From the UHGV virus genome UHGV-0126185: a stretch of DNA of 34,871 bases; one strand, written 5' to 3'. The DNA is from a virus. Both the position numbers and the translations under genes were made by a program. The first letter of the stretch is position 1, and every line of letters starts with the position of its first letter. This document shows positions 6,598 to 34,195 of the stretch, piece by piece. The notes under the pieces are model-generated. The model searched no databases. It was not told where the DNA came from and worked only from the letters and a program-made list of their open reading frames with translations.

Positions 6598-6618
6598 GTG
6601 TATGGAGCGCAAAGAAGC

Positions 6619-7308
6619 ATGAATCAACAAGACCTGAATTTTGTAAGAATAGAATTGCGCCGCGCGCTACCTGACCTCTCTGGGGGAACAAAAGGGCAGC
6701 TTGAGGCTTTCAGTGAACACCCACCAGCAGACAAAAATGCCACCCCGCGCCGTGGAATTCATCTCGTCGAACTCGAAGGAGAGAAGGGGCCACGCTTTGT
6801 TAACTTGCTTTCCGCGCCACTGTATGTGCTGGAAACACGCAGCCGCCGCAGGCCAATGCCGCCGATAAAAGATGCGGAATTTGAGTCCGCGCCGTGGCGT
6901 AGGGCAGTGTCCGCGCTTAGTGGATACCAGCAGGCCTGGTTGCGGTACTGCTACGGTTTTGACCTTAGCTATAAGCACCAGGTGATGATGTGTGAATACG
7001 TCTGGAAAACTTATCAGAAATGCCTGGGTGATAATTCCCTTCAGGAGCGCGTAGTAAAGAAACTGATTGGCCTGGTATGGCTGGCAGGGCAGGAAATTGC
7101 CGCAACCAGAAATAATGAAACCTATAAAGACTATGCTGGTGCAGCGTTGGCCCGCATGGTTAGCGTTGACCGTTCGACATGGTTGCGTGTCTATTCAGGG
7201 CACTGGGCTGGGTTAAAGGCCGCTTTTACCCAGCTTGATGAATCTGCGTTGGCAATGGCTCTTGAATACTATGAGGAAGAAGAAGCCCTCAAAGTGGCAG
7301 AAATGTGA
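6619..7308 (+). CDS. late-gene antitermination protein Q
   Basis: 229 aa from the ATG at 6619 (an in-frame GTG at 6598 is the alternative start); Q-like Cys/basic content; immediately followed by a promoter-like element and an intrinsic terminator, then the late/lysis genes. Confidence 0.65.
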   Translation: MNQQDLNFVRIELRRALPDLSGGTKGQLEAFSEHPPADKNATPRRGIHLVELEGEKGPRFVNLLSAPLYVLETRSRRRPMPPIKDAEFESAPWRRAVSALSGYQQAWLRYCYGFDLSYKHQVMMCEYVWKTYQKCLGDNSLQERVVKKLIGLVWLAGQEIAATRNNETYKDYAGAALARMVSVDRSTWLRVYSGHWAGLKAAFTQLDESALAMALEYYEEEEALKVAEM

Positions 7309-7890: not shown

Positions 7891-8943
7891 ATGAAAAATA
7901 CTGTAAAAATAAACAGTGTTGAATTAATCAACGCTGATAGCCTGCATTACGTCGCCACCCTCCCGGATAACTCTATTGATCTGATAGTTACGGATCCGCC
8001 GTACTTCAAAGTGAAGCCCAACGGCTGGGACAATCAATGGAAGGGGGACGAGGACTACTTACGCTGGCTTGATAGCTGTCTGGCTGAGTATGCTCGCGTT
8101 CTTAAACCTGCTGGTAGCATTTACCTGTTTTGTGGTCACCGACTGGCCTCAGATATAGAGATTATGATGCGTGCCCGGTTCAACGTTTTGAATCACATAA
8201 TTTGGGCAAAACCATCGGGCCGCTGGAATGGATGTAACAAAGAAAGCCTGCGTGCGTACTTTCCATCTACGGAACGGATTTTGTTTGCTGAGCACTATCT
8301 TGGGCCGTACACAGGTAAAGAGGATGTTTACGAAAGGAAAAGCACAGAGCTAAAGCAGCACATTATGACGCCGCTGATTGATTACTTCCGTAATGCCCGT
8401 GAATCACTGGGTGTCAGCTCGAAAGAAATAGCTGAGGCAACCGGCAAGAAAAACATGGCGTCACACTGGTTTGGTGCAAGCCAATGGCAACTACCAAATG
8501 AAGTGGACTATAGAAAGTTGCAGGAACTGTTCACGCGGATCGCTATCGATAAGCACATTCAGCAGAAGCTTGAACATCCTCACCATCAGCTGGTGGCTAC
8601 CTACCAGTCATTAAACCGCAAGTATTCAGAATTGCTGGAGGAATACAAAACCCTCCGGCGCTGTTTCTCTGTTTCCGCTCTTGTTCCGTATACCGACGTA
8701 TGGACGCATAAGCCTGTTCAGTTTTATCCGGGCAAACATCCATGCGAAAAACCTGCCGACATGCTGAAGCAGATCATTAGCGCCAGCAGCAGGCCGGGGG
8801 ATATCGTTGCCGATTTCTTTATGGGCTCTGGTTCAACTGTGAAAGCAGCAATAGAACTTGGCCGTCGGGCGATCGGCGTAGAACTGGAGGAAGACAGGTT
8901 TATACAGACCACCGAAGAGGTGGAAAAACTGAAAAAATCATAA
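7891..8943 (+). CDS. DNA methyltransferase (N6-adenine/N4-cytosine family, DPPY motif)
   Basis: 350 aa; catalytic motif IV DPPY (LIVTDPPYF) near the N-terminus and AdoMet-binding motif I near the C-terminus (DIVADFFMGSGST); no restriction endonuclease partner visible. Confidence 0.85.
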   Translation: MKNTVKINSVELINADSLHYVATLPDNSIDLIVTDPPYFKVKPNGWDNQWKGDEDYLRWLDSCLAEYARVLKPAGSIYLFCGHRLASDIEIMMRARFNVLNHIIWAKPSGRWNGCNKESLRAYFPSTERILFAEHYLGPYTGKEDVYERKSTELKQHIMTPLIDYFRNARESLGVSSKEIAEATGKKNMASHWFGASQWQLPNEVDYRKLQELFTRIAIDKHIQQKLEHPHHQLVATYQSLNRKYSELLEEYKTLRRCFSVSALVPYTDVWTHKPVQFYPGKHPCEKPADMLKQIISASSRPGDIVADFFMGSGSTVKAAIELGRRAIGVELEEDRFIQTTEEVEKLKKS

Positions 8944-9088: not shown

Positions 9089-9367
9089 ATGACCAGAATG
9101 AGCACCATTTACAGCAGACTTTCATATGGAACAGGAACCACGCTGACCGGCTGCGGTGTATCAGCGAAGGCATATGCCGAAACAGCTAAAACAGCAAAAG
9201 AGGTGTCCTGGATGTTGGCCGACAGAATTGCAGGGTTAAGCCTGAGCGACTGGGCAATTATTGTCGGTATCTCATGCACTGTTATCACCTGTGCAGTGAA
9301 CTGGTACTACAGGAAAAAGGAAAGGGAGGACCGGCTTAATGGCAATGTCACCAAAGCTGAAGAATAG
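9089..9367 (+). CDS. holin (pinholin-like, phage 21 S21-type), dual-start motif
   Basis: 92 aa; resembles the phage 21 pinholin as I recall it (YGT...[12 protein letters not shown]...[10 protein letters not shown]); MTRM N-terminus gives two in-frame Met starts; 3' end overlaps the SAR endolysin gene. Confidence 0.6.
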
Positions 9368-9911
9368 CGTTATTGCAGCTATACCCGCTGGCGCTATTGC
9401 TATCGCAGCGGCGTTGATTATTGGTCCAACGGGTAATGATGGCCTTGAAGGAGTGCGCTATCAGCCTTATCGGGATGTTGTTGGGGTGTGGACGGTATGC
9501 TACGGGCACACTGGCAGCGACGTCAAAATCGGGAAGACGTACACCGAGACAGAGTGTGCCATTCTGCTCACAAAAGATCTGAATACCATCGCACGTCAGA
9601 TTGACCCCTACATCAAGGTTCCGATCCCGGCAACAATGCGGGGTGCACTTTACTCATTCGCGTACAACGTCGGTGCTGGCAACTTCAAAACCTCCACGCT
9701 GCTACGCAAAATCAACCTGGGCGACACAAAAGGGGCTTGCGAACAATTACGGCGCTGGACATATGCCGGTGGCAAACAGTGGAAGGGGTTAATCACCCGG
9801 CGTGAGATTGAGCGTGAAGTTTGTCTGTGGGCTGAGAAATCACAAAATCTGAGTGATGGATATGAGCCGCTTAACCCAGGCATTCCAGTATCAGTTTCGG
9901 GGGTATTTTGA
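9339..9911 (+). CDS. SAR endolysin (lysozyme with signal-anchor-release domain, R21-like)
   Basis: 190 aa; N-terminal Gly/Ala-rich SAR helix ([17 protein letters not shown]) followed by [28 protein letters not shown]; close resemblance to phage 21 R endolysin; catalytic Glu/Asp/Thr positions present. Confidence 0.85.
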
Positions 9912-10444
9912 TGAACCCGAAACACCAGATTGTTGTTGGGTTGCTGCTGGTGGCCGTCGCATTCATCGCCGGCAGTGTATGGAGCAGTCGCGGGTGGGAA
10001 AAAAAGTGGGCGGAACGTGACAGCGTGGAATCATCGCAAACAGCGAACGCACAGACCGCTGCCCGCATGATTGAACAAGGGCGCATTATTGCCCGTGATG
10101 AGGCTGTAAAAGATGCACAAGCGCAAGCCGCTAAATCTGCTGCCACTGCTGCTGGTCTGTCTGCCACTGTTAGCCAGCTGCGCACCGAAGCAACAAAACT
10201 CGCTACCCGCCTGGACGCCGCAAAGCACACCGCAGATCTTGCCGCTGCCGTCAGAAGCAAAACAACCGACGCCGACACCAGAATGCTCGCCGACATGCTC
10301 GGAGATATTGCAGCAGAAGCTAAACGTTATGCTGGAATCGCTGACGAACGCTACCGTGCCGGAATGACATGTGAACGCATTTACGATTCGGTGAGACAGT
10401 CGAATAACGGGAAGTGGCAAAAAGCGGGGACGAATCCCCGCTAG
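9908..10444 (+). CDS. Rz: i-spanin (Rz-like)
   Basis: 178 aa; N-terminal transmembrane segment ([14 protein letters not shown]) then a long Ala/Gln-rich coiled-coil periplasmic domain; follows the endolysin with an ATGA overlap. Confidence 0.75.
10113..10367 (+). CDS. Rz1: o-spanin (Rz1-like lipoprotein) embedded in the +1 frame of Rz
   Basis: 84 aa wholly inside Rz in another frame; signal peptide with lipobox LLASC, proline-rich mature region; classic embedded Rz/Rz1 architecture. Confidence 0.7.
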
Positions 10445-10447
10445 CTG

Positions 10448-10663
10448 TTAGCCAACTTTGCGATAAGGGTAGCCAGCTTTTTTGATGTGGGCATCAAAAT
10501 ACTGACCTTTTGACGGTGCATTCATTAGCGCTGTGTGCACGGCAGAAGGAACCCGAGAGTATTGATAAATGCCACTGCTATGGAATGCAATTTCCAGCGT
10601 TGAAGTGGCCGGGTCATAACCTACTGATTGGAGATTTGAAGATGAAACAGGTTGACGAATCAA
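10448..10663 (-). CDS. KTSC domain protein
   Basis: 71-aa minus-strand ORF whose pattern (SSNLQSVGYDPATSTLEIAFHSSGIYQYSRVP...A.SKGQYF...IKKAGYPY) matches the KTSC domain seen in small phage proteins. Confidence 0.55.
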   Translation of the reverse strand: MIRQPVSSSNLQSVGYDPATSTLEIAFHSSGIYQYSRVPSAVHTALMNAPSKGQYFDAHIKKAGYPYRKVG

Positions 10664-10812
10664 AGCAGTTTCCTCGTTTGAATGGGAAAAGTCCCGAGGA
10701 AATCGTAGAGCTATTCAAAGGGTATAACTTTGTCGACGATCATGGTCATCGACTGGATATGTGCCAGGACTTCATTGACTTAGTAGAGATGGCGACCGAA
10801 ACAGATAAGTAG
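10642..10812 (+). CDS. small hypothetical protein (about 56 aa)
   Basis: ATG at 10642 preceded by ggag RBS; acidic protein-like sequence; 22-nt antisense overlap with the 5' end of the KTSC gene. Tentative. Confidence 0.3.
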   Translation: MKQVDESKQFPRLNGKSPEEIVELFKGYNFVDDHGHRLDMCQDFIDLVEMATETDK

Positions 10813-10913
10813 CCATTCCAAAGCTCATCTGCGGATGGGCTTGATAATTGTGACTCCCAAGTCAAACCCGTGATTGTGGTAAAATTTAAAAAATCATCAA
10901 CACGGGGGTTACC

Positions 10914-11153
10914 ATGGAAAATTGTACGATTTCGTTACGTGTTACGCCTGGAATCAGAGTGAATGCTTTACGTATAAAAGAGGAAAACGGCGAAGTAAAT
11001 TACTTCATTGGCAGGGGGCCTGTGTCAGAAATGATTTTCCCTAAAATTCCCTTAGGAGCACTCCTCGATGTTGATATCGACTCTAATGCAAACATTCGCC
11101 TTATGTATCTCGGCTATGAAAGTGAAGACTACATCTTAACGAATGACTTCTAG
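10914..11153 (+). CDS. hypothetical protein (AT-rich cargo gene)
   Basis: 79-aa ORF with lower GC than the backbone; RBS-like gggggtt before the ATG; terminator follows; no recognisable motif. Confidence 0.45.
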   Translation: MENCTISLRVTPGIRVNALRIKEENGEVNYFIGRGPVSEMIFPKIPLGALLDVDIDSNANIRLMYLGYESEDYILTNDF

Positions 11154-11202
11154 AAGACGCATACAAGACCGTCTAAAGGCTATTTTTCATTGCCATCGCA
11201 AA

Positions 11203-11228
11203 GGCCACCTTCGGGTGGCTTTGTTGTT
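11203..11228. terminator. intrinsic terminator between convergent genes
   Basis: Hairpin gccacc-ttcg-ggtggc followed by TTTGTTGTT; lies between the + strand 79-aa gene and the minus-strand 143-aa gene. Confidence 0.5.
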
Positions 11229-11266
11229 GCCATCACCATGGGCAGACCCATCGTGATGGCTTTAAT

Positions 11267-11698
11267 TTATAGAAGTTGGGCTTTAACAGCGGCTTTGACC
11301 AACTCGTCCATGAAGTGATTTTCGAGGTTGTCAGCATAATCAATAGAGATTGATGGCGCCTCTGGCCTGCTTGGGATAGTCATCGTATTATCGCTATCGA
11401 TGTGGAAAACAGCAAACTTGATAATATCGTCCTTCTGCTTGATGCAGAAGGCTATTTCAGCTATCGGCTGATTTCCTATGAACTTAATCTTCGTCTTACT
11501 GAAGCAGTGGAAATCGCATTGCGGAATATTAATCTCAAGCTCATCATTCTCCATCACAAAGGTGATCTCGCGATTAAGTGTTTTTGAACGACTCCAGTAA
11601 TTGTACACGCGGTCAAATAGGCATTTTTTCTTAAAAAGTATGTCTTCTCCCTGCAATCCCAGGGCTCGCGATAGTGTTGCAAATTTCAGTATTTCCAT
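11267..11698 (-). CDS. hypothetical protein (AT-rich minus-strand cargo gene, about 143 aa)
   Basis: ORF track gives 11267..11725, but the ATG at 11698 has a GGAG RBS 5 nt upstream on the minus strand; AT-rich; opposite orientation to the whole late operon; no recognisable motif. Confidence 0.5.
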   Translation of the reverse strand: MEILKFATLSRALGLQGEDILFKKKCLFDRVYNYWSRSKTLNREITFVMENDELEINIPQCDFHCFSKTKIKFIGNQPIAEIAFCIKQKDDIIKFAVFHIDSDNTMTIPSRPEAPSISIDYADNLENHFMDELVKAAVKAQLL

Positions 11699-11718
11699 AA
11701 TCACTCCATAGGTTTTAC

Positions 11719-12291
11719 ATGGCACTTACCGACAAACAGGATATGTTCTGTCGTGAGTACCTCATCGATTTAAACGCCACTCAGGCAGCGATTCGTGTGG
11801 GGTACAGCGCAAAAACTGCTAACCGTACCGCTACAAAATTGCTGTCAAAAGCTGTCATTCAAAACAGGATTGCTGAACTCAAAGCGAAGCGCAACGAGGA
11901 TGTGGGCATTGATGCCGATTATGTGCTTCGGCGCTTGGTTGAAATCGACCAGATGGATGTTCTGGATATCCTCAATGATGACGGCAGCCTTAAGCCGATC
12001 ACCTCATGGCCAAAGGCCTGGCGAATATCGCTAACCGGCCTGGACATCAGCACCACGATTCAGAACTTCGACGAGGAGACGGCGGAAACCATCCTCAAAA
12101 AAGTTAAGTGGCCTGACAAAGTGAAGAACCTCGAGCTACTCGGCAAGCATGTATGCGTCCAGGCGTTCAAAGAGCAGGTTGAACAGAAAGTCGTAGCGAC
12201 TCATAACGTCATGCTGGTGCCAACCAGCGACAACGTGGATAGCTGGGAAGCCGCAGCACAGAAACAGCAGAGCGAGGTTCTTGGTGGATGA
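11719..12291 (+). CDS. terminase small subunit
   Basis: 190 aa; N-terminus MALTDKQDMFCREYLIDLNATQAAIRVGYS is typical of terminase small subunits; immediately upstream of, and overlapping, the large subunit gene. Confidence 0.85.
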   Translation: MALTDKQDMFCREYLIDLNATQAAIRVGYSAKTANRTATKLLSKAVIQNRIAELKAKRNEDVGIDADYVLRRLVEIDQMDVLDILNDDGSLKPITSWPKAWRISLTGLDISTTIQNFDEETAETILKKVKWPDKVKNLELLGKHVCVQAFKEQVEQKVVATHNVMLVPTSDNVDSWEAAAQKQQSEVLGG

Positions 12292-25536: not shown

Positions 25537-25760
25537 TGAAAATTGCAGAAGTAAAGGTCTCTGATGTTGTTTGGTATGCCAACGAAAATGGAAAGGCGAT
25601 CAGTGCCTTCGTGACTTTCTATGGCCCAGACGATTGCACTCGCATTGCAAGTGTCCCTGTTAACTTGCCATATCAGCTAGACCTGACCCTTAAGCAAGTT
25701 GAAGAGCTTGCCATTGCCACTGCTAAGGGTACGCTAAAAGCGGTCGCTACTAGTTTCTGA
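25536..25760 (+). CDS. hypothetical small protein (cargo)
   Basis: 74 aa; start overlaps the tape measure stop (TAATG); lower GC than the backbone; no lambda counterpart between H and M. Confidence 0.45.
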   Translation: MKIAEVKVSDVVWYANENGKAISAFVTFYGPDDCTRIASVPVNLPYQLDLTLKQVEELAIATAKGTLKAVATSF

Positions 25761-25822
25761 TCGTTACATCCCTATCTCCCCTGGTTATCATGAGAAAAAA
25801 CATGATAATCATGGGGATGATA

Positions 25823-26233
25823 ATGAGAAAAATGTTTTGCTTAAGTTTGGCCTGTATTGCACTTACTGCGTGTAAACCTTCAGAGGAAAAAGCACTACAA
25901 CTCGGGCAACAAGAAATTGCAAATGGGTTGATGGATCCCGATAGCGCCAAATTTAAAATGGTTAGGTTCAATTTGGACAAAAACCAGCAGTCCGGGGATG
26001 TTGTGAGCGGTTTCGTATGTGGCAGGGTTGCTGGGAAGAATGGGCTTGGTGCGTATGTTGGCTACCATCCTTTCTATGTTCATATCAAGATGACTCCCAA
26101 AGGGGCGTTTTCTAAAGGCGTGAATTATGAGATCGGAGAAAAAGCGATATACCCCGATGGAAGAGATGAGTCATGGATAGATCTTGACGGAAACTCTTAT
26201 GTTAGCCGCTGCGGTGCCACACCATCCAAATGA
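25823..26233 (+). CDS. putative lipoprotein (cargo)
   Basis: ORF track starts at 25790; the ATG at 25823 has a gggga RBS and gives a signal peptide with lipobox LTAC (MRKMFCLSLACIALTAC); AT-rich. Confidence 0.55.
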   Translation: MRKMFCLSLACIALTACKPSEEKALQLGQQEIANGLMDPDSAKFKMVRFNLDKNQQSGDVVSGFVCGRVAGKNGLGAYVGYHPFYVHIKMTPKGAFSKGVNYEIGEKAIYPDGRDESWIDLDGNSYVSRCGATPSK

Positions 26234-26275
26234 GTTTATGTAGAGCCTTCTAACCACCACCACTCAACCGAAACC

Positions 26276-26302
26276 CAGCCTCGCTGACGCGGGGCTTTTT
26301 GT
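26276..26302 (+). terminator. putative intrinsic terminator after the lipoprotein gene
   Basis: Imperfect hairpin gcctcgc-tgac-gcggggc followed by TTTTTGTT. Confidence 0.4.
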
Positions 26303-26379
26303 TGCCAACGGGCTGGTGAATGCGGTTGAAATTTGAGCGCCACATTCAGAGGGCGCGAGATACTACAGCAATTTATGGT

Positions 26380-26540
26380 GCAATGCATTGTAAGCAGGGT
26401 CTGTTTTTGTGCAAAAAGTGCTATTTGTGCGCATTGGTACAGATTGAAACGCATTGGAACGTATTGCAACTTTGCACGATCATGTTGTGATTCTGCAATC
26501 ACCTTAGAGGTAATTTCGGTGAAACTGATTGCAACGTGCT
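26380..26540. promoter_or_regulatory. repeat-rich putative operator/promoter region upstream of the Doc-family module
   Basis: Perfect palindrome caatgcattg (26381-26390); direct repeats gcattggtac / gcattggaac (26431, 26451); ATTGCAAC at 26463 and 26528 with inverse TGCAAT at 26494; no convincing protein-coding frame. Confidence 0.3.
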
Positions 26541-26719
26541 TTAAGTGCTTCGGAAATGTCGTCGAACGTGCATCCATCTTCAGACATAGACCCATTGCTC
26601 AAATAAGAAGAATGGTATTAAATTGTCCTCAACCACTAAGAGTGGTCATGAATTCTTTGGATGTGTTTGCATCCTACAATTTGAGAAAGCACTGCCAAAC
26701 GTGCATGAGGGTGATAATC

Positions 26720-29997: not shown

Positions 29998-32900
29998 ATG
30001 GCAACGATTACTGGTGCGAAGGGCGGCAGCCAAAAACAGCATACACCTGTAGAACAGCCGGACTCCGCGCAGTCAATGGCTCGCTGCCGCATGCTTCTGG
30101 CTCTGGGGGAAGGTGAGTTTGCAGGTGGGTTGGATGCCACGCGCATTTTCCTGGATGGTACGCCGCTGGGCAATTCTGATGGCTCTATGAATTTTGAGAA
30201 TGTGTCATGGGATTTTCGCCCGGGAACTCAGATTCAGACAACGATCCCCGGCTTTCCTGCGGTAGAAAACGAAACCAGCATTGGTGTTTCGCTGACGAAA
30301 GTCGCTCCATGGACAAGGGCAATTAGCAATACCCAAATCGATGCTGTTCTGGTGCGTGTCGGTATTAATGGGCTTCAGCAGCAGGAGAATGATGGCGATA
30401 TCGTTGGCACAACCGTTCAGTATCACATTGATCTCGCCATTGATGGTGGTGCGTACTCTACGGTGATGACCAAAACGGTTACGGAGAAGCTCAGCTCACT
30501 GTACGAGATCACTCATCGTATTAATCTGCCGAAAGCCAACAACGGCTGGCAAATCCGGATTGTTCGCGATACTGATGACAGCACCAGCCAGATGCTTCAG
30601 AACAAAACTCAGGTACAGGCGATCACCGAGGTGATAGATGCTCGCCTGCGCTATCCGCATACCGCGCTGCTGTACGTGTCCTTTAACGCGAAGTCATTCA
30701 ACAATATCCCTAAGATTTCATGTAAACCTAAAGGCCGGGTAATCCGCATCCCGCAGAACTACGATCCGATTGCACGCACTTATAGCGGTACATGGGACGG
30801 TACATTCAAATGGGGATGGACGAATAATCCTGCATGGATCTGGTTCGATATTCTTACTGAACCTCGCTTCGGCCTGGGTCGCAGGGTTACACCAGCGATG
30901 CTCGATAAATGGGAGTTATATCGTATTGCCCAGCGTTGCGACCAGAAGGTGCCGGATGGTAAGGGTGGTAGCGGTACCGAGCCTCGCTTTATGTTTGACG
31001 TTTATATCCAGGCTCAGGCTGATGCCTGGCAGGTGATTAAGGATATTGCGGCTGGTTTTAACGGTATGACGTTCTGGGGAAACAACATGTTCAATGTTGT
31101 CTCGGATATGCCAGCTGATACGTCAAAGCTCCAGATCCTCACCCGAGCCTCGGTGGTCGGGAAACCAACCTATTCCAGCGGCAGTGAAAAGAACCGATAT
31201 AGCTCTGCGCTGATTAACTTTAGCGATCCAGAGAATCACTATCAGGACCGAACTACAGCAGTAATGTTTCCTGACCTGGTAAAACAGTTCAAGTTTAAGC
31301 AGACGCAATTGACGGCTATTGGCTGTACACGTGAAAGCGAGGCGCAGCGCCGCGGAGGGTGGGCCGTCTACTCCAACTCTTTGGACCGTATTATCACTGT
31401 TCAGACGGGACTTGATGGCTTCGCTTATGTGCCGGGGACCGTATTTGCGTTTGCAGATGAACGGCTATCTGGCCGTGTCTATGGTGGACGTATTACTGAA
31501 TACAACGGCGTTCTGAAATCTGTAACTACCGATCGGGGTACAAGCGCATTAGCCGGCGATACGCTGATGATTCGTACCCTGGGCGGTACCGTTGAGAGCA
31601 GAACCATTCAGGCGGTTAACGGCCAGCAACTGATACTGGTAACTGCCTTTACCGCTGAGCCACAACCTAATGCCATTTTTGTTATCGATGCTGGCCAGTT
31701 GCGCCTCCAGTACTTCCGCGTAACCAATCTGACATTTAACGATGAAGAGAACACCTACAGTATCACCGGTGCAGAGTACAACGCGACGAAGTATGATGCC
31801 GTTGATAACAACGCCCGACTGGATACGCCGCCGATCAGCCTGTTACCGACAGGCCTGGTAGGGCAACCGACAAACATTACGATTAGTAGCTACGACTCGG
31901 TTCGGCAGGGGCAGCGTATTGCGACCATGGTTGCGAGCTGGGATACGCCAGTAGATAAAAACGGGAAACCTCAGGCCGATATTGTCGCCTATCAGGCACA
32001 GTGGAAACGCGGTGATAATGAGTGGATCAATATCCCTGAAACGGGTTTGCGCAATATCGAGGTGCCTGGGATTTTCTCAGGCGATTATCTTGTGCGAGTT
32101 CGCGCCATTAACTCTGGAGGTGCGTCCAGTCTGTGGGCCTCTTCTGTTCTGACGCATCTCACTGGACGTACTGGGGATGTTCCTAAACCGATTGGACTTC
32201 GTACCACTGCAATCAACTGGGGTATTCAGGTTGACTGGTCCTTCCCGGCTGATACAGGTGACACGCTCCAGACCGAGTTGCAGTATTCAGCAAACGGTAA
32301 TGGAGATAATCCTCTGCTGCTTGCAGGAGTTCCGTATCCTCAACACACATATACCCAACTGGGTTTGAAGGCTGGTCAGGAGTTCTGGTACCGGGCTCGT
32401 CTGGTCGATCGCATTGGTAATCAGAGTGACTGGACCGACTGGATTCGTGGCCAATCCAGCGCGAATGCTGACGACTACCTGGGCGATATTGCTGATGACT
32501 TCCTGACGTCTGCAGACGGTGACCGCCTGACAAGCGACATTGATACCAACCTGGAAGCCGCGTTGCAGAATGCGCTGGCCAATCATGGAACGGTGGAACA
32601 CCAGTGGGCGCAGTATGGTGAAGTACGCGCGGATATTCTGGTAGTCAAAACGACCATTGCACAGGTCGATAAGGCCATGGCTGAAATGTCCACGCAAGTG
32701 CAGGCGCAGATTAAAGATGTAACCGCCTCGCTTGAGGATAAGCTCACTGCCACCGTTGATGCTACAAGTGCTACGGCCATTCATACCCTGAAAGTCGGAG
32801 TGCGCATCAACGATATTTTTTACGGTGCCGGGATGTCGATTGCAGTGCTGGCCGAAGCGGGTAAACCGGTAGTCACTCGTGTCGGATTTAACGCCAATCA

Positions 32901-33207
32901 GTTCGTCCTGATGAGTGGCAGCGGCGATACGCAATATTCACCCTTTGCGGTGGTCAATGGTCAGGTCTTTATCAGTGATGCATTTATCCAGTATAGCCAA
33001 ATCACGCTGGCAAAAATTAAAGAACTGCGATCAGAAAATTACGTTCAGGGACAAACGGGCACCATCATGAAATCGGACGGAACGTTTGAAATGAATGGAG
33101 CAGTTGCCGGGGAGGGGGCAATGAAAATTACCAACACAACCCAGAGCGTTAAGGACGGGAATGGCGTCCTTCGCGTGCAGATTGGGAAATTAACAGGAGT
33201 GTTTTGA
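29998..33207 (+). CDS. host specificity protein J (central tail fibre / tip attachment protein)
   Basis: 1069 aa; size and position after K and I, with fibronectin-III-like central region and variable C-terminus, as in lambda gpJ. Confidence 0.9.
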   Translation: MATITGAKGGSQKQHTPVEQPDSAQSMARCRMLLALGEGEFAGGLDATRIFLDGTPLGNSDGSMNFENVSWDFRPGTQIQTTIPGFPAVENETSIGVSLTKVAPWTRAISNTQIDAVLVRVGINGLQQQENDGDIVGTTVQYHIDLAIDGGAYSTVMTKTVTEKLSSLYEITHRINLPKANNGWQIRIVRDTDDSTSQMLQNKTQVQAITEVIDARLRYPHTALLYVSFNAKSFNNIPKISCKPKGRVIRIPQNYDPIARTYSGTWDGTFKWGWTNNPAWIWFDILTEPRFGLGRRVTPAMLDKWELYRIAQRCDQKVPDGKGGSGTEPRFMFDVYIQAQADAWQVIKDIAAGFNGMTFWGNNMFNVVSDMPADTSKLQILTRASVVGKPTYSSGSEKNRYSSALINFSDPENHYQDRTTAVMFPDLVKQFKFKQTQLTAIGCTRESEAQRRGGWAVYSNSLDRIITVQTGLDGFAYVPGTVFAFADERLSGRVYGGRITEYNGVLKSVTTDRGTSALAGDTLMIRTLGGTVESRTIQAVNGQQLILVTAFTAEPQPNAIFVIDAGQLRLQYFRVTNLTFNDEENTYSITGAEYNATKYDAVDNNARLDTPPISLLPTGLVGQPTNITISSYDSVRQGQRIATMVASWDTPVDKNGKPQADIVAYQAQWKRGDNEWINIPETGLRNIEVPGIFSGDYLVRVRAINSGGASSLWASSVLTHLTGRTGDVPKPIGLRTTAINWGIQVDWSFPADTGDTLQTELQYSANGNGDNPLLLAGVPYPQHTYTQLGLKAGQEFWYRARLVDRIGNQSDWTDWIRGQSSANADDYLGDIADDFLTSADGDRLTSDIDTNLEAALQNALANHGTVEHQWAQYGEVRADILVVKTTIAQVDKAMAEMSTQVQAQIKDVTASLEDKLTATVDATSATAIHTLKVGVRINDIFYGAGMSIAVLAEAGKPVVTRVGFNANQFVLMSGSGDTQYSPFAVVNGQVFISDAFIQYSQITLAKIKELRSENYVQGQTGTIMKSDGTFEMNGAVAGEGAMKITNTTQSVKDGNGVLRVQIGKLTGVF

Positions 33208-33521
33208 TGGAATGGGGGATACAGACATGGGACGCTAATGGCGTCCCTAATAACTACGGAATCAAACCAATCAGCGTAGTTGGTATAATCGACCTGTTAG
33301 TGGATCAGAAAACCGGCTCTTATTCTTTCAACCTGGAACCTGGCCTGAAAGTTGGCTTTACAGTAGGGACTGCGGAGGCTGCAAGTTTGATTGCGTACAC
33401 AAACAAAAGAAACATTCTTGCTTCCGGTAACACAATTACAATTCAGCCATCAACGGGCGACGGTGTTAACGACTATCCTGCAAATCAGGTTCAGCTGATT
33501 GTTTTTGCGGAGAAGGTGTAA
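33204..33521 (+). CDS. hypothetical protein downstream of J
   Basis: 105 aa; ATGATGG start overlapping the J stop (translational coupling); not recognised. Confidence 0.45.
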   Translation: MMEWGIQTWDANGVPNNYGIKPISVVGIIDLLVDQKTGSYSFNLEPGLKVGFTVGTAEAASLIAYTNKRNILASGNTITIQPSTGDGVNDYPANQVQLIVFAEKV

Positions 33522-34195
33522 TGGCAAAATATGGTGTTTTGCTAGCGTTACCCAATGGAAATCCTTTTGTTACTCCGGATTCCACACCATTGATACTTTA
33601 TAAAAAAGTGTCGTTAAACTCAAAGTATAATGGTGATTTTAACTCTGCGGTTATTGAGGAAAATATTGTTAATCAAAAGGCAGGGGTTGTATTCGCAAGA
33701 ACAAGTACTGCGGCAAAAATCTCAGCCGTAAAAGAAGGGAACTTATTTAATGTTTCTGCTTCGAACTATAGAAGGGCTGCTTTTACTCTTGAAGCTTACT
33801 TTTTCGCAATAACTCCACAAACCTTACCCAGTCACGGTATAGCTATATGGGACGCATCAGGCACACTGGTTCTTACAAACGAATCAAGGGTATTGACAGA
33901 TCTGACAACTATCGGGACGCCTGGAGCGGCTACGGGTGGAATTAATATCGATGTCACAATGCCGGGGAAATGGGCCGTAAATCCGATGGGGCTGGGATCT
34001 GTCATCATCCACGCTGGTTCTGCACCAGGTGGACAGCCAATATTTCAGTCCGTTGATGTGGGGACGGGGTGCCATGACGACGCTGGTGGTACAAGAATTA
34101 GGGGGCAAAGTTCAACCACCGCCAGTGGTGCTACTATAGGGTCAACGAATAGCGGAATTGTGATAACGGCGATAAACACAGCCGCATATGATTAA
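33521..34195 (+). CDS. hypothetical protein downstream of J (AT-rich 5' half)
   Basis: 224 aa; TAATG overlap with the preceding ORF; 5' half clearly lower in GC; Gly/Thr-rich C-terminus; not recognised. Confidence 0.45.
   Translation: MAKYGVLLALPNGNPFVTPDSTPLILYKKVSLNSKYNGDFNSAVIEENIVNQKAGVVFARTSTAAKISAVKEGNLFNVSASNYRRAAFTLEAYFFAITPQTLPSHGIAIWDASGTLVLTNESRVLTDLTTIGTPGAATGGINIDVTMPGKWAVNPMGLGSVIIHAGSAPGGQPIFQSVDVGTGCHDDAGGTRIRGQSSTTASGATIGSTNSGIVITAINTAAYD

What the first reader, a model, noticed from the sequence alone, without database searches (positions are those of the whole stretch)
10448..11725. Mixed-orientation, AT-rich cargo cluster between the lysis cassette and terminase
Between Rz/Rz1 and the terminase small subunit lie four small genes: a minus-strand KTSC-domain protein, a 56-aa + strand ORF overlapping its 5' end, a 79-aa + strand protein, and a convergent 143-aa minus-strand protein with a good RBS. 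They are separated by a bidirectional terminator. The GC content is clearly below the backbone, and the 143-aa gene would be transcribed from a promoter inside the 5' end of the terminase small subunit gene. None of the proteins resembles a family I recognise, which fits a lysogen-expressed exclusion or defence function.
Basis: partly seen in the sequence, partly recalled or inferred. Interest (0 to 1): 0.55.

Follow-up and report, generated by a model that had tools for sequence, protein, structure and literature searches.

The report
Swappable accessory-gene slot beside phage terminase
The four small genes between the lysis and DNA-packaging genes of this Citrobacter prophage are real, but they are three independently shuffled accessory modules rather than one cluster; the 143-aa backward-facing gene sits in a slot next to the small-terminase gene where related phages carry dozens of different unknown genes.

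Summary
Coordinates are KTSC gene 10448-10663(-), 56-aa gene 10642-10812(+), 79-aa gene 10914-11153(+), two strong hairpins 11201-11260, and 143-aa gene 11267-11698(-), 20 bp from terS (11719). GC is 43.0% against 52.1% for the window. All four genes show dN/dS of 0.08-0.26.

The genes assort independently:
- KTSC and the 56-aa gene travel with Rz.
- The 79-aa gene occurs without the 143-aa gene, and the reverse.
- The 143-aa gene travels with terS.

Of 80 related phage contigs, 68 carry an antisense ORF of at least 57 aa starting 37 bp or less from the terS ATG. The 76 upstream antisense ORFs found fall into 29 sequence clusters. A terminator plus a conserved imperfect palindrome often marks the far border of this slot.

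The 143-aa family is rare: 15 representatives in 1.84 billion proteins. It matches no Pfam, PHROG, NCBIfam, PADLOC or PDB entry. It models confidently as a frataxin-like alpha/beta sandwich with no conserved catalytic residues.

My best reading is a moron expressed from the prophage whose product binds a protein target, probably in phage-phage conflict. Expression and function are untested. It is a new member of a known kind, of moderate interest.

The parts
10448..10663 (-). KTSC-domain protein gene (71 aa, TTG start, GAGGA Shine-Dalgarno). It sits antisense to the late operon directly after Rz, the position lambda bor occupies. It is inherited together with Rz and the 56-aa gene.
   Evidence: Pfam PF13619 at 2e-25. 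YxY motif present (IYQYS). 94-99% identical copies lie after DUF2514 Rz genes in E. coli H6 and L025. dN/dS 0.16-0.20.
10642..10812 (+). 56-aa acidic protein gene on the late strand. Its 5' end overlaps the KTSC 5' end by 22 nt. GGAG ribosome-binding site at 10631-10634.
   Evidence: phrog_18255 at 4.8e-35, function unknown. Annotated or called as a gene in E. coli H6 and in L003, L006, L034-L038. dN/dS 0.17-0.20.
10914..11153 (+). 79-aa acidic protein gene on the late strand. It is an orphan restricted to Citrobacter prophages and is predicted to be all-beta, with low confidence.
   Evidence: Three homologue clusters at 72-99% identity. dN/dS 0.21-0.26. AF2 pLDDT 45.8, so unusable. Occurs without the 143-aa gene in L032 and L034-L038.
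11201..11222 (.). GC-rich terminator hairpin (AAGGCCACC-TTCG-GGTGGCTTT). A UUUGUUGUU tract follows on the + strand; only CUUUG follows on the - strand.
   Evidence: z = -5.2 and -6.0. The left edge of homology with other terS-side blocks falls here, at 11184-11205.
11229..11260 (.). Imperfect 14-bp-arm palindrome GCCATCACCATGGG-CAGA-CCCATCGTGATGGC, starting 6 bp past the 143-aa stop codon. It is the conserved left border of the cargo slot. Its function is unexplained.
   Evidence: Present upstream of terS in 26 of 80 related loci carrying at least 10 different cargo genes, usually preceded by a canonical terminator. Sequence is conserved, with no covariation signal.
11267..11698 (-). 143-aa soluble, mildly acidic (pI 5.6) protein gene, antisense to the late operon and divergent from terS. 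It is the cargo of the terS-proximal slot.
11699..11718 (.). 20-bp divergent spacer between the 143-aa ATG and the terS ATG. It holds the GGAG of the 143-aa gene (11707-11704, - strand) and at best a weak Shine-Dalgarno for terS.
   Evidence: Sequence. The spacer is 20-23 bp in every 143-family locus that abuts terS.
11822..11848 (-). Candidate sigma-70 promoter for the 143-aa gene inside terS: -35 TTGACA (11848-11843), 15-nt spacer, -10 TACGGT (11827-11822). Its use is inferred, not shown. It would give a leader of about 115 nt antisense to the terS start.
   Evidence: PWM score 9.4, against a background of about 0.47 hits per kb per strand. The same candidate occurs in 25 of 80 related loci with different cargos, but it is not universal. 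The strict consensus scan did not report it.
11719..12291 (+). Small terminase subunit gene (190 aa, Terminase_2). It forms the fixed right border of the slot.
   Evidence: Pfam PF03592 at 8.9e-37 and phrog_51 at 1.2e-51.

Best explanation
The interval is a mosaic of three independently assorting accessory modules in a Q-dependent lambdoid prophage of Citrobacter.

1. A divergent, 5'-overlapping pair, KTSC(-) and 56-aa(+), belongs to the Rz side.
2. A 79-aa gene lies on the late strand.
3. A 143-aa antisense gene occupies a cassette-like slot. The slot's right border is the terS start codon, 20 bp away. Its left border is a terminator plus a conserved imperfect palindrome.

Related phages fill this slot with many unrelated genes, or leave it empty. 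The 143-aa gene is therefore a moron in the classical sense.

Shown:
- It encodes a real, purifying-selected, soluble protein of about 16 kDa.
- The protein has a confident alpha-beta(5-6)-alpha sandwich model with frataxin-like topology.
- There is no conserved catalytic constellation. Only P59, F84 and A137 are invariant apart from the start Met.

Inferred:
- It is transcribed from a promoter inside the first ~130 nt of terS, independently of the late operon and therefore in the lysogen. The late-strand terminators upstream would shield it from convergent read-through until Q-modified polymerase arrives.
- Its product acts by binding another protein rather than by catalysis.
- The most likely role is in phage-phage conflict, such as exclusion or abortive defence against superinfecting phages. 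The target is unknown.

The 56-aa and 79-aa genes are late-expressed accessory genes of unknown role. KTSC is a small putative nucleic-acid-binding protein placed like lambda bor.
For: Gene reality rests on homologues and on dN/dS of 0.08-0.26.

Independent assortment:
- An identical 143-aa protein sits next to 79-, 64-, 161- or 186-aa neighbours and three different lysis cassettes.
- The 79-aa gene occurs in Nu1/GpA-type phages and in phages with a 328-aa terS, without the 143-aa gene.
- The blastn block boundaries are 9945-10799 (with Rz) and 11184/11205 rightward (with terS).

Slot:
- Family members examined at 27-100% identity to the window protein lie 20-23 bp divergent from a Terminase_2 terS, with several different TerL/portal types.
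- 68 of 80 TerS-related IMG/VR loci have an antisense ORF of at least 57 aa starting 37 bp or less from terS. The 76 ORFs found fall into 29 clusters.
- Some relatives have an empty slot (L101, L103).
- The palindrome and terminator border is present in 26 of 80 loci across at least 10 cargos.
- phiES15 has an unannotated 72-aa ORF in the same place.

Conflict flavour:
- Slot cargos include a Zn-ribbon plus DUF4145 (HEPN-type) protein at Pfam 1.1e-11, and several membrane proteins.
- A 20%-identical family member sits beside Abi_2, PemK and AbiEi-like genes.
- The only viral structural analogue is itself a moron with its own terminator in P2-like phage Mana.
- Precedent: JBD26 Tab is a minus-strand gene with its own promoter next to terS that is expressed from the prophage (PMC10884400).

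Structure and lack of catalytic residues.
Against: - There is no expression evidence of any kind.
- No convincing, universally conserved sigma-70 promoter lies on the antisense strand of terS.
- No PADLOC hit for the 143-aa protein, its distant relatives or other slot cargos.
- The - strand U-tract after the hairpins is weak, so even the 3' end of the proposed transcript is uncertain.
- Guilt by association with a variable slot is weak evidence. Morons also encode host-fitness factors unrelated to phage defence.
Confidence: 0.5

Rival explanations
1. The function is linked to terS. Either the 143-aa protein binds or modulates the small terminase (packaging specificity, interference with other phages' or satellites' packaging, in the manner of SaPI Ppi or PICI Rpp). 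Or the act of transcribing the gene produces an RNA antisense to the terS start region that keeps packaging silent in lysogens.
For: The family stays immediately divergent from a Terminase_2 terS down to 26-29% identity and across different TerL/portal modules. Any transcript must start inside terS and be complementary to its translation-initiation region. terS has no good Shine-Dalgarno.
Against: TerS proteins 88-96% identical pair with 143-family alleles only 27-35% identical, so there is no co-variation. 28 other unrelated clusters occupy the same slot. Adjacency is therefore a property of the slot, not of this protein. The antisense-RNA idea would apply to every cargo and says nothing about the protein. 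One member lies outside any phage packaging context.
Confidence: 0.15
2. It is a host-directed lysogenic-conversion factor unrelated to phage defence. For example, it could modulate a host pathway, Fe-S cluster assembly being suggested by the frataxin-like fold.
Against: Identity is 4-11%. Pfam returned no family, Frataxin_Cyay included. The profile found no PDB sequence. The conserved Cys61/Cys65 of the close group are not kept in distant members. The family is confined to prophage slots.
Confidence: 0.12
3. It is an anti-defence (counter-defence) protein that protects the phage or prophage from a host immune system.
For: It is small, acidic, fast-diverging between lineages, non-enzymatic and of unknown fold family. 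These traits are common among anti-defence proteins.
Confidence: 0.08
4. The four genes form one co-functional cargo cluster, a multi-gene defence system.
For: They are contiguous, share low GC and have mixed orientation with internal hairpins.
Against: Each module occurs without the others. Two of the genes are in the late transcript.
Confidence: 0.04

Closest known systems
Phage morons (Juhala et al. 2000 concept; lambda bor as the antisense example in the same Rz-to-packaging interval)
   Same: An extra gene sits between genes that are adjacent in some relatives (empty slot in L101, L103). GC is lower than the backbone. It has its own ribosome-binding site and flanking hairpins or terminators. 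It is oriented against the late operon.
   Different: The product is a cytoplasmic soluble protein, not a lipoprotein. The promoter has not been identified. The slot has unusually fixed borders: the terS ATG on one side and a terminator plus palindrome on the other.
Tab / anti-Tab of Pseudomonas phage JBD26 (PMC10884400)
   Same: A small protein of unknown family is encoded on the minus strand next to the small-terminase gene inside the late region. In JBD26 it is expressed from the prophage.
   Different: Tab lies between terS and terL and always has a late-strand partner (anti-Tab). Here the neighbouring late-strand 79-aa gene is not co-inherited. No sequence relationship is known, and no phenotype has been tested.
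Defence hotspots of P2-like phages and P4-like satellites (PMC9122126)
   Same: A fixed position between conserved phage genes holds many alternative cargo genes across related prophages. The only viral structural analogue of the 143-aa protein is itself a moron in a P2-like phage (Mana gp15).
   Different: The phage group is different (lambdoid, Terminase_2 terS). The slot is single-gene sized. None of its cargos matches a PADLOC model with confidence.
Frataxin / CyaY fold
   Different: There is no sequence-level relationship. An extra short helix and a long loop (residues 108-124) are present. There is no evidence of iron or IscS binding.

Membership tests
Moron (independently transcribed extra gene in a prophage) | Present in some genomes and absent between the same flanking genes in close relatives | tested here: met
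   The slot upstream of terS holds 29 different clusters and is empty in L101 and L103. An identical packaging block carries different left neighbours.
Moron (independently transcribed extra gene in a prophage) | Own promoter | tested here: inconclusive
   There is only one candidate, TTGACA-N15-TACGGT inside terS. It is shared by 25 of 80 loci but is not universal, and the strict scan is negative.
Moron (independently transcribed extra gene in a prophage) | Own terminator | tested here: inconclusive
   Two strong hairpins lie 6-65 bp past the stop codon, but the U-tract on the gene's own strand is only CUUUG.
Moron (independently transcribed extra gene in a prophage) | Base composition different from the neighbours | tested here: met
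   41.7% GC for the 143-aa gene against 50.8% for terS and 56.2% for terL.
Moron (independently transcribed extra gene in a prophage) | Expressed from the repressed prophage | not testable with these tools
   This needs RNA-seq or a reporter fusion in a lysogen.
KTSC domain (PF13619), for the 71-aa protein | HMM score above the gathering threshold over the full domain | tested here: met
   88.7 bits against 25, covering profile positions 1-57 of 58.
KTSC domain (PF13619), for the 71-aa protein | Central YxY motif (Pfam description, own knowledge) | tested here: met
   Residues IYQYS in the translation.
Frataxin/CyaY, for the 143-aa protein | Sequence-profile membership | tested here: not met
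   The Pfam search of the protein returned no family at E<=1, Frataxin_Cyay included. The family profile finds no PDB sequence below E=0.17.
Frataxin/CyaY, for the 143-aa protein | Fold topology alpha-beta(5-7)-alpha | tested here: met
Known anti-phage defence systems (PADLOC-DB 2.0) | Match to any defence-protein model | tested here: not met
   No hit at E<=1 for any of the four window proteins or for three distant 143-family members.
Tab/anti-Tab-type two-gene module | Obligatory late-strand partner gene co-inherited with the antisense gene | tested here: not met
   The 79-aa gene and the 143-aa gene each occur without the other.
Tab/anti-Tab-type two-gene module | Sequence similarity to Tab | not tested

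The most novel reading that the evidence does not exclude
The position immediately upstream of Terminase_2-type terS genes in enterobacterial lambdoid prophages is a cassette-exchange hotspot with conserved recombination borders: terminator plus palindrome on one side, and the invariant terS 5' end on the other. It carries dozens of families of lysogen-expressed single-gene systems, many of them new anti-phage or exclusion proteins, the 143-aa frataxin-like family among them. Because every cargo transcript must start inside terS, cargo expression would also be antisense to the terS initiation region. That would couple moron expression to the silencing of packaging in the lysogen.
Probability: 0.2. 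Interest if true: 0.6.

Novelty: new member of a known kind. Interest (0 to 1): 0.4.

Why it matters
Variable slots in prophages have been productive places to find new anti-phage systems. This slot is sharply delimited and occupied in 68 of 80 related contigs. Its cargos are almost entirely uncharacterised small proteins, so it offers a compact and testable candidate list.

The 143-aa family itself is rare. It has a confident structural model but no known relative, which makes it a tractable single-gene candidate for functional screening. For annotation, the result also corrects the idea that the four genes form one unit.

Tried and rejected
- Sequence families: the 79-aa and 143-aa proteins have no hit in Pfam, PHROGs, NCBIfam, PADLOC or PDB sequence profiles.
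- tblastn of the 143-aa protein against 50,697 phage genomes found nothing.
- megablast of the interval against phages found nothing. In E. coli genomes only the Rz/KTSC/56-aa part matched.
- Rfam found nothing in 10300-11900.
- Structure of the 79-aa protein: pLDDT 45.8, so it was not searched further.
- Foldseek of the 143-aa model against PDB gave nothing below E=0.09. The AFDB library was unavailable.
- BFVD gave one hit, phage Mana gp15, but hhalign shows no sequence homology.
- The search for related loci with the divergent family alignment failed for lack of conserved stretches.
- 79-aa gene as the anti-partner of the 143-aa gene (Tab/anti-Tab logic): rejected on co-occurrence.
- TerS co-evolution: rejected.
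- Palindrome as a structured RNA: no covariation, and two internal positions are unpaired in about 95% of copies.
- Palindrome as a cos site: judged unlikely, because cargo of variable length (about 0.25-1.5 kb) separates it from terS (inference).
- Integron attC analogy: considered and dropped, because the sequence does not fit the attC consensus as I recall it (not checked with a tool).
- Literature searches for a described lysis-terminase hotspot of this kind found only general moron and hotspot papers.
Full report
**What is there.** The window is a lambdoid prophage. The 143-aa protein is identical to proteins annotated from Citrobacter freundii. The gene order is as follows:
- Q antiterminator, 6598-7308
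- N6/N4 DNA methylase, 7891-8943
- holin, 9089-9367
- lysozyme, 9339-9911
- Rz (DUF2514), 9908-10444, with an embedded Rz1 lipoprotein ORF, 10113-10367
- the interval in question
- terS (Terminase_2), 11719-12291
- terL, a DUF4055 portal and the rest of the late genes

- KTSC, 10448-10663(-): Pfam 2e-25, TTG start with a GAGGA Shine-Dalgarno.
- A 56-aa gene, 10642-10812(+): overlaps the KTSC 5' end by 22 nt and matches phrog_18255 at 5e-35.
- A 79-aa gene, 10914-11153(+).
- A 143-aa gene, 11267-11698(-): GGAG lies five nt before its ATG.

Every close homologue of the last gene is 143-144 aa. The ATG at 11698 is therefore the start, not the upstream GTG at 11725.

**Are the genes real?** Yes. 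Pairwise Nei-Gojobori dN/dS is 0.08 for the 143-aa family (L015 against L047, 87% aa identity, dS 0.95). It is 0.21-0.26 for the 79-aa gene, 0.17-0.20 for the 56-aa gene and 0.16-0.20 for KTSC. All four products are soluble. None has an obvious signal peptide or membrane segment on reading the sequences, and no predictor was run. Three are acidic and KTSC is basic. The interval has 43.0% GC against 52.1% for the window, in the lowest 1% of equally sized windows.

**Signals.** Two adjacent hairpins lie between the convergent 79-aa and 143-aa genes. One is 11201-11222, GC-rich with a 4-nt loop. The other is 11229-11260, with 14-bp arms and one mismatch. The 91-nt stretch folds at about -39 kcal/mol on either strand, z = -5.2 and -6.0. 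On the late (+) strand both hairpins are followed by U-rich tracts. On the minus strand only CUUUG follows the second. They therefore look mainly like tandem late-strand terminators that Q-modified polymerase would read through, and 'bidirectional' is only partly justified.

Only 20 bp separate the 143-aa ATG from the terS ATG, so the promoter must lie inside terS. The strict consensus scan finds none. A PWM scan gives one candidate: TTGACA (11848-11843), a 15-nt spacer, then TACGGT (11827-11822). Its score is 9.4, and such scores occur about 0.47 times per kb per strand in this window.

**The four genes are not one unit.** The evidence comes from context and from block boundaries.
- An identical 143-aa protein (P0001) is found next to the 79-aa gene, to a start-truncated call of it, to a 161-aa gene or to a 186-aa gene, and downstream of three different lysis cassettes. 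It is always 20 bp from the same terS.
- blastn block boundaries show that 9945-10799 (Rz, KTSC, 56-aa) is shared with an E. coli H6 prophage and with L025.
- Homology with other packaging blocks starts at 11184-11205, in the terminator, and runs rightwards.
- The 79-aa gene occurs with the 56-aa gene in front of a 328-aa Terminase_2 terS, and in a Nu1/GpA (lambda-type) phage. In both cases there is no 143-aa gene.

The interval therefore contains three modules: KTSC with the 56-aa gene on the lysis side, the 79-aa gene, and the 143-aa gene on the terS side.

**The 143-aa family and its slot.** A profile search of 1.84 billion representative proteins finds only 15 members, 143-148 aa apart from one 69-aa fragment and a weak partial match in a 1624-aa protein. 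Apart from the start Met, only P59, F84 and A137 are invariant across the family.

Members at 100, 63, 53, 36, 32, 29, 27 and 26% identity to the window protein all sit divergently 20-23 bp from a 189-191-aa Terminase_2 terS, with several different TerL/portal types. One member at about 20% lies in the same lysis-terS gap, one gene removed. Another lies in a small island beside Abi_2, PemK and AbiEi-like genes.

TerS proteins 88-96% identical can be paired with 143-family alleles only 27-35% identical. The alleles are therefore swapped next to a conserved terS and do not co-evolve with it.

I then fetched 80 viral contigs encoding TerS at 66-96% identity.
- 68 have an antisense ORF of at least 57 aa starting 37 bp or less from the terS ATG.
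- The 76 ORFs found fall into 29 sequence clusters. They include DUF2158 (14 loci), a 77-aa family (11 loci), a 212-aa Zn-ribbon plus DUF4145/HEPN-type protein, DUF6173, several apparent membrane proteins (judged by eye from the sequences) and many proteins with no family.
- None hits PADLOC convincingly.
- Some relatives have an empty slot.
- Cronobacter phage phiES15 has an unannotated 72-aa ORF there.
- In 26 of the 80 loci, spanning at least 10 cargo types, the far border of the slot is the same imperfect palindrome seen at 11229-11260. It is usually preceded on the late strand by a canonical terminator and often lies 7-45 bp beyond the cargo stop codon.
- The palindrome is conserved in sequence, shows no covariation, and has two positions unpaired in about 95% of copies. 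Its role is unexplained.

**Structure.** With the 14-sequence alignment, AF2 gives pLDDT 86.3 and pTM 0.81. The model has a long N-terminal helix (6-36), a short helix, five to six antiparallel strands and a C-terminal helix.
- Foldseek finds nothing in the PDB.
- In BFVD, Foldseek finds only an uncharacterised 151-aa protein of P2-like Burkholderia phage Mana, with TM 0.75. By its length this must be CPT_Mana_015, a gene with its own terminator between tail-completion and tail-spike genes. It shows no sequence homology.

This is a fold resemblance, not family membership.

**Mechanism.** The steps shown are these: an autonomous-looking antisense gene in a hypervariable, sharply bordered slot; a folded, non-enzymatic-looking soluble protein under purifying selection; and alleles exchanged independently of terS.

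The inferred steps are these: transcription from within terS in the lysogen; action by protein binding; and a role in phage-phage conflict.

The inference rests on the moron anatomy, on the nature of some co-slot cargos and neighbours (HEPN-type and membrane proteins; an Abi_2/PemK island), and on precedent. In JBD26, Tab is a minus-strand gene with its own promoter next to terS that defends the lysogen (PMC10884400). I put about 0.5 on this reading as a whole. Confidence in the genomic architecture is much higher than in the function.

The rivals are a terS-linked role, a host-directed conversion factor, anti-defence, and a single four-gene system. They are weighed in the Rival explanations section.

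**Novelty.** Accessory genes between lysis and packaging genes of lambdoid phages are well known, so this is a new member of a known kind. The added value has two parts. The 143-aa gene belongs to a rare, undescribed family with a good structural model. It also marks a well-delimited cargo slot abutting terS that I did not find described in the literature searched.

Noticed in passing
window 11229-11260; also L040-L109 (26 loci), L015, L024: The imperfect palindrome GCCATCACCATGGG-N4-CCCATCGT(G/A)ATGGC is conserved at 92% mean column identity upstream of terS. It recurs whichever cargo gene lies between it and terS, and two internal positions are almost always unpaired. It could be a protein-binding site, a recombination border or an mRNA end element.
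   Followed up: partly
L040-L119 (upstream of terS in each); L039 2761-2979: The antisense slot abutting terS holds 29 unrelated ORF clusters across 80 related viral contigs. Examples are DUF2158, a 77-aa family, a 148-aa protein with a PD-(D/E)xK-like motif, a Zn-ribbon plus DUF4145/HEPN protein, DUF6173 and membrane proteins. phiES15 has an unannotated 72-aa ORF there.
   Followed up: partly
window 7891-8943 (+): A 350-aa N6/N4 DNA methyltransferase (PF01555, 1e-44) lies between the Q antiterminator and the holin. It is another accessory gene at the head of the late operon.
   Followed up: no
window 25700-26600, especially 26236-26595 (-): This is a second low-GC patch (about 44%) inside the tail-gene region. 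It holds a 119-aa minus-strand ORF and a 147-aa + strand ORF, neither with a Pfam match, and may be another antisense moron.
   Followed up: no
window 33050-34195: This is a third low-GC patch (about 43%), just after the J-type tail-tip gene (29998-33207). It has 105-aa and 224-aa + strand ORFs without Pfam matches, in the position of tail-fibre or exclusion-type accessory genes.
   Followed up: no
L020 3359-7100; L021; L022: A 20%-identical member of the 143-aa family lies outside a phage packaging context. It is antisense to its neighbours, in a small island with Abi_2, a GNAT acetyltransferase, PemK toxin and an AbiEi/HTH gene.
   Followed up: partly
window 11699-11718: terS has no clear Shine-Dalgarno in the 20-bp spacer (ccataggttttacATG). 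Relatives with an empty slot (L101, L103) have GAGGA or AAGGA instead. Cargo insertion seems to have replaced the terS translation-initiation region.
   Followed up: no
L024 6433-6711: In the lineage with the 32%-identical allele, an extra small minus-strand ORF and a separate terminator sit between the 143-family gene and the palindrome. The slot can therefore hold two cargo genes.
   Followed up: no
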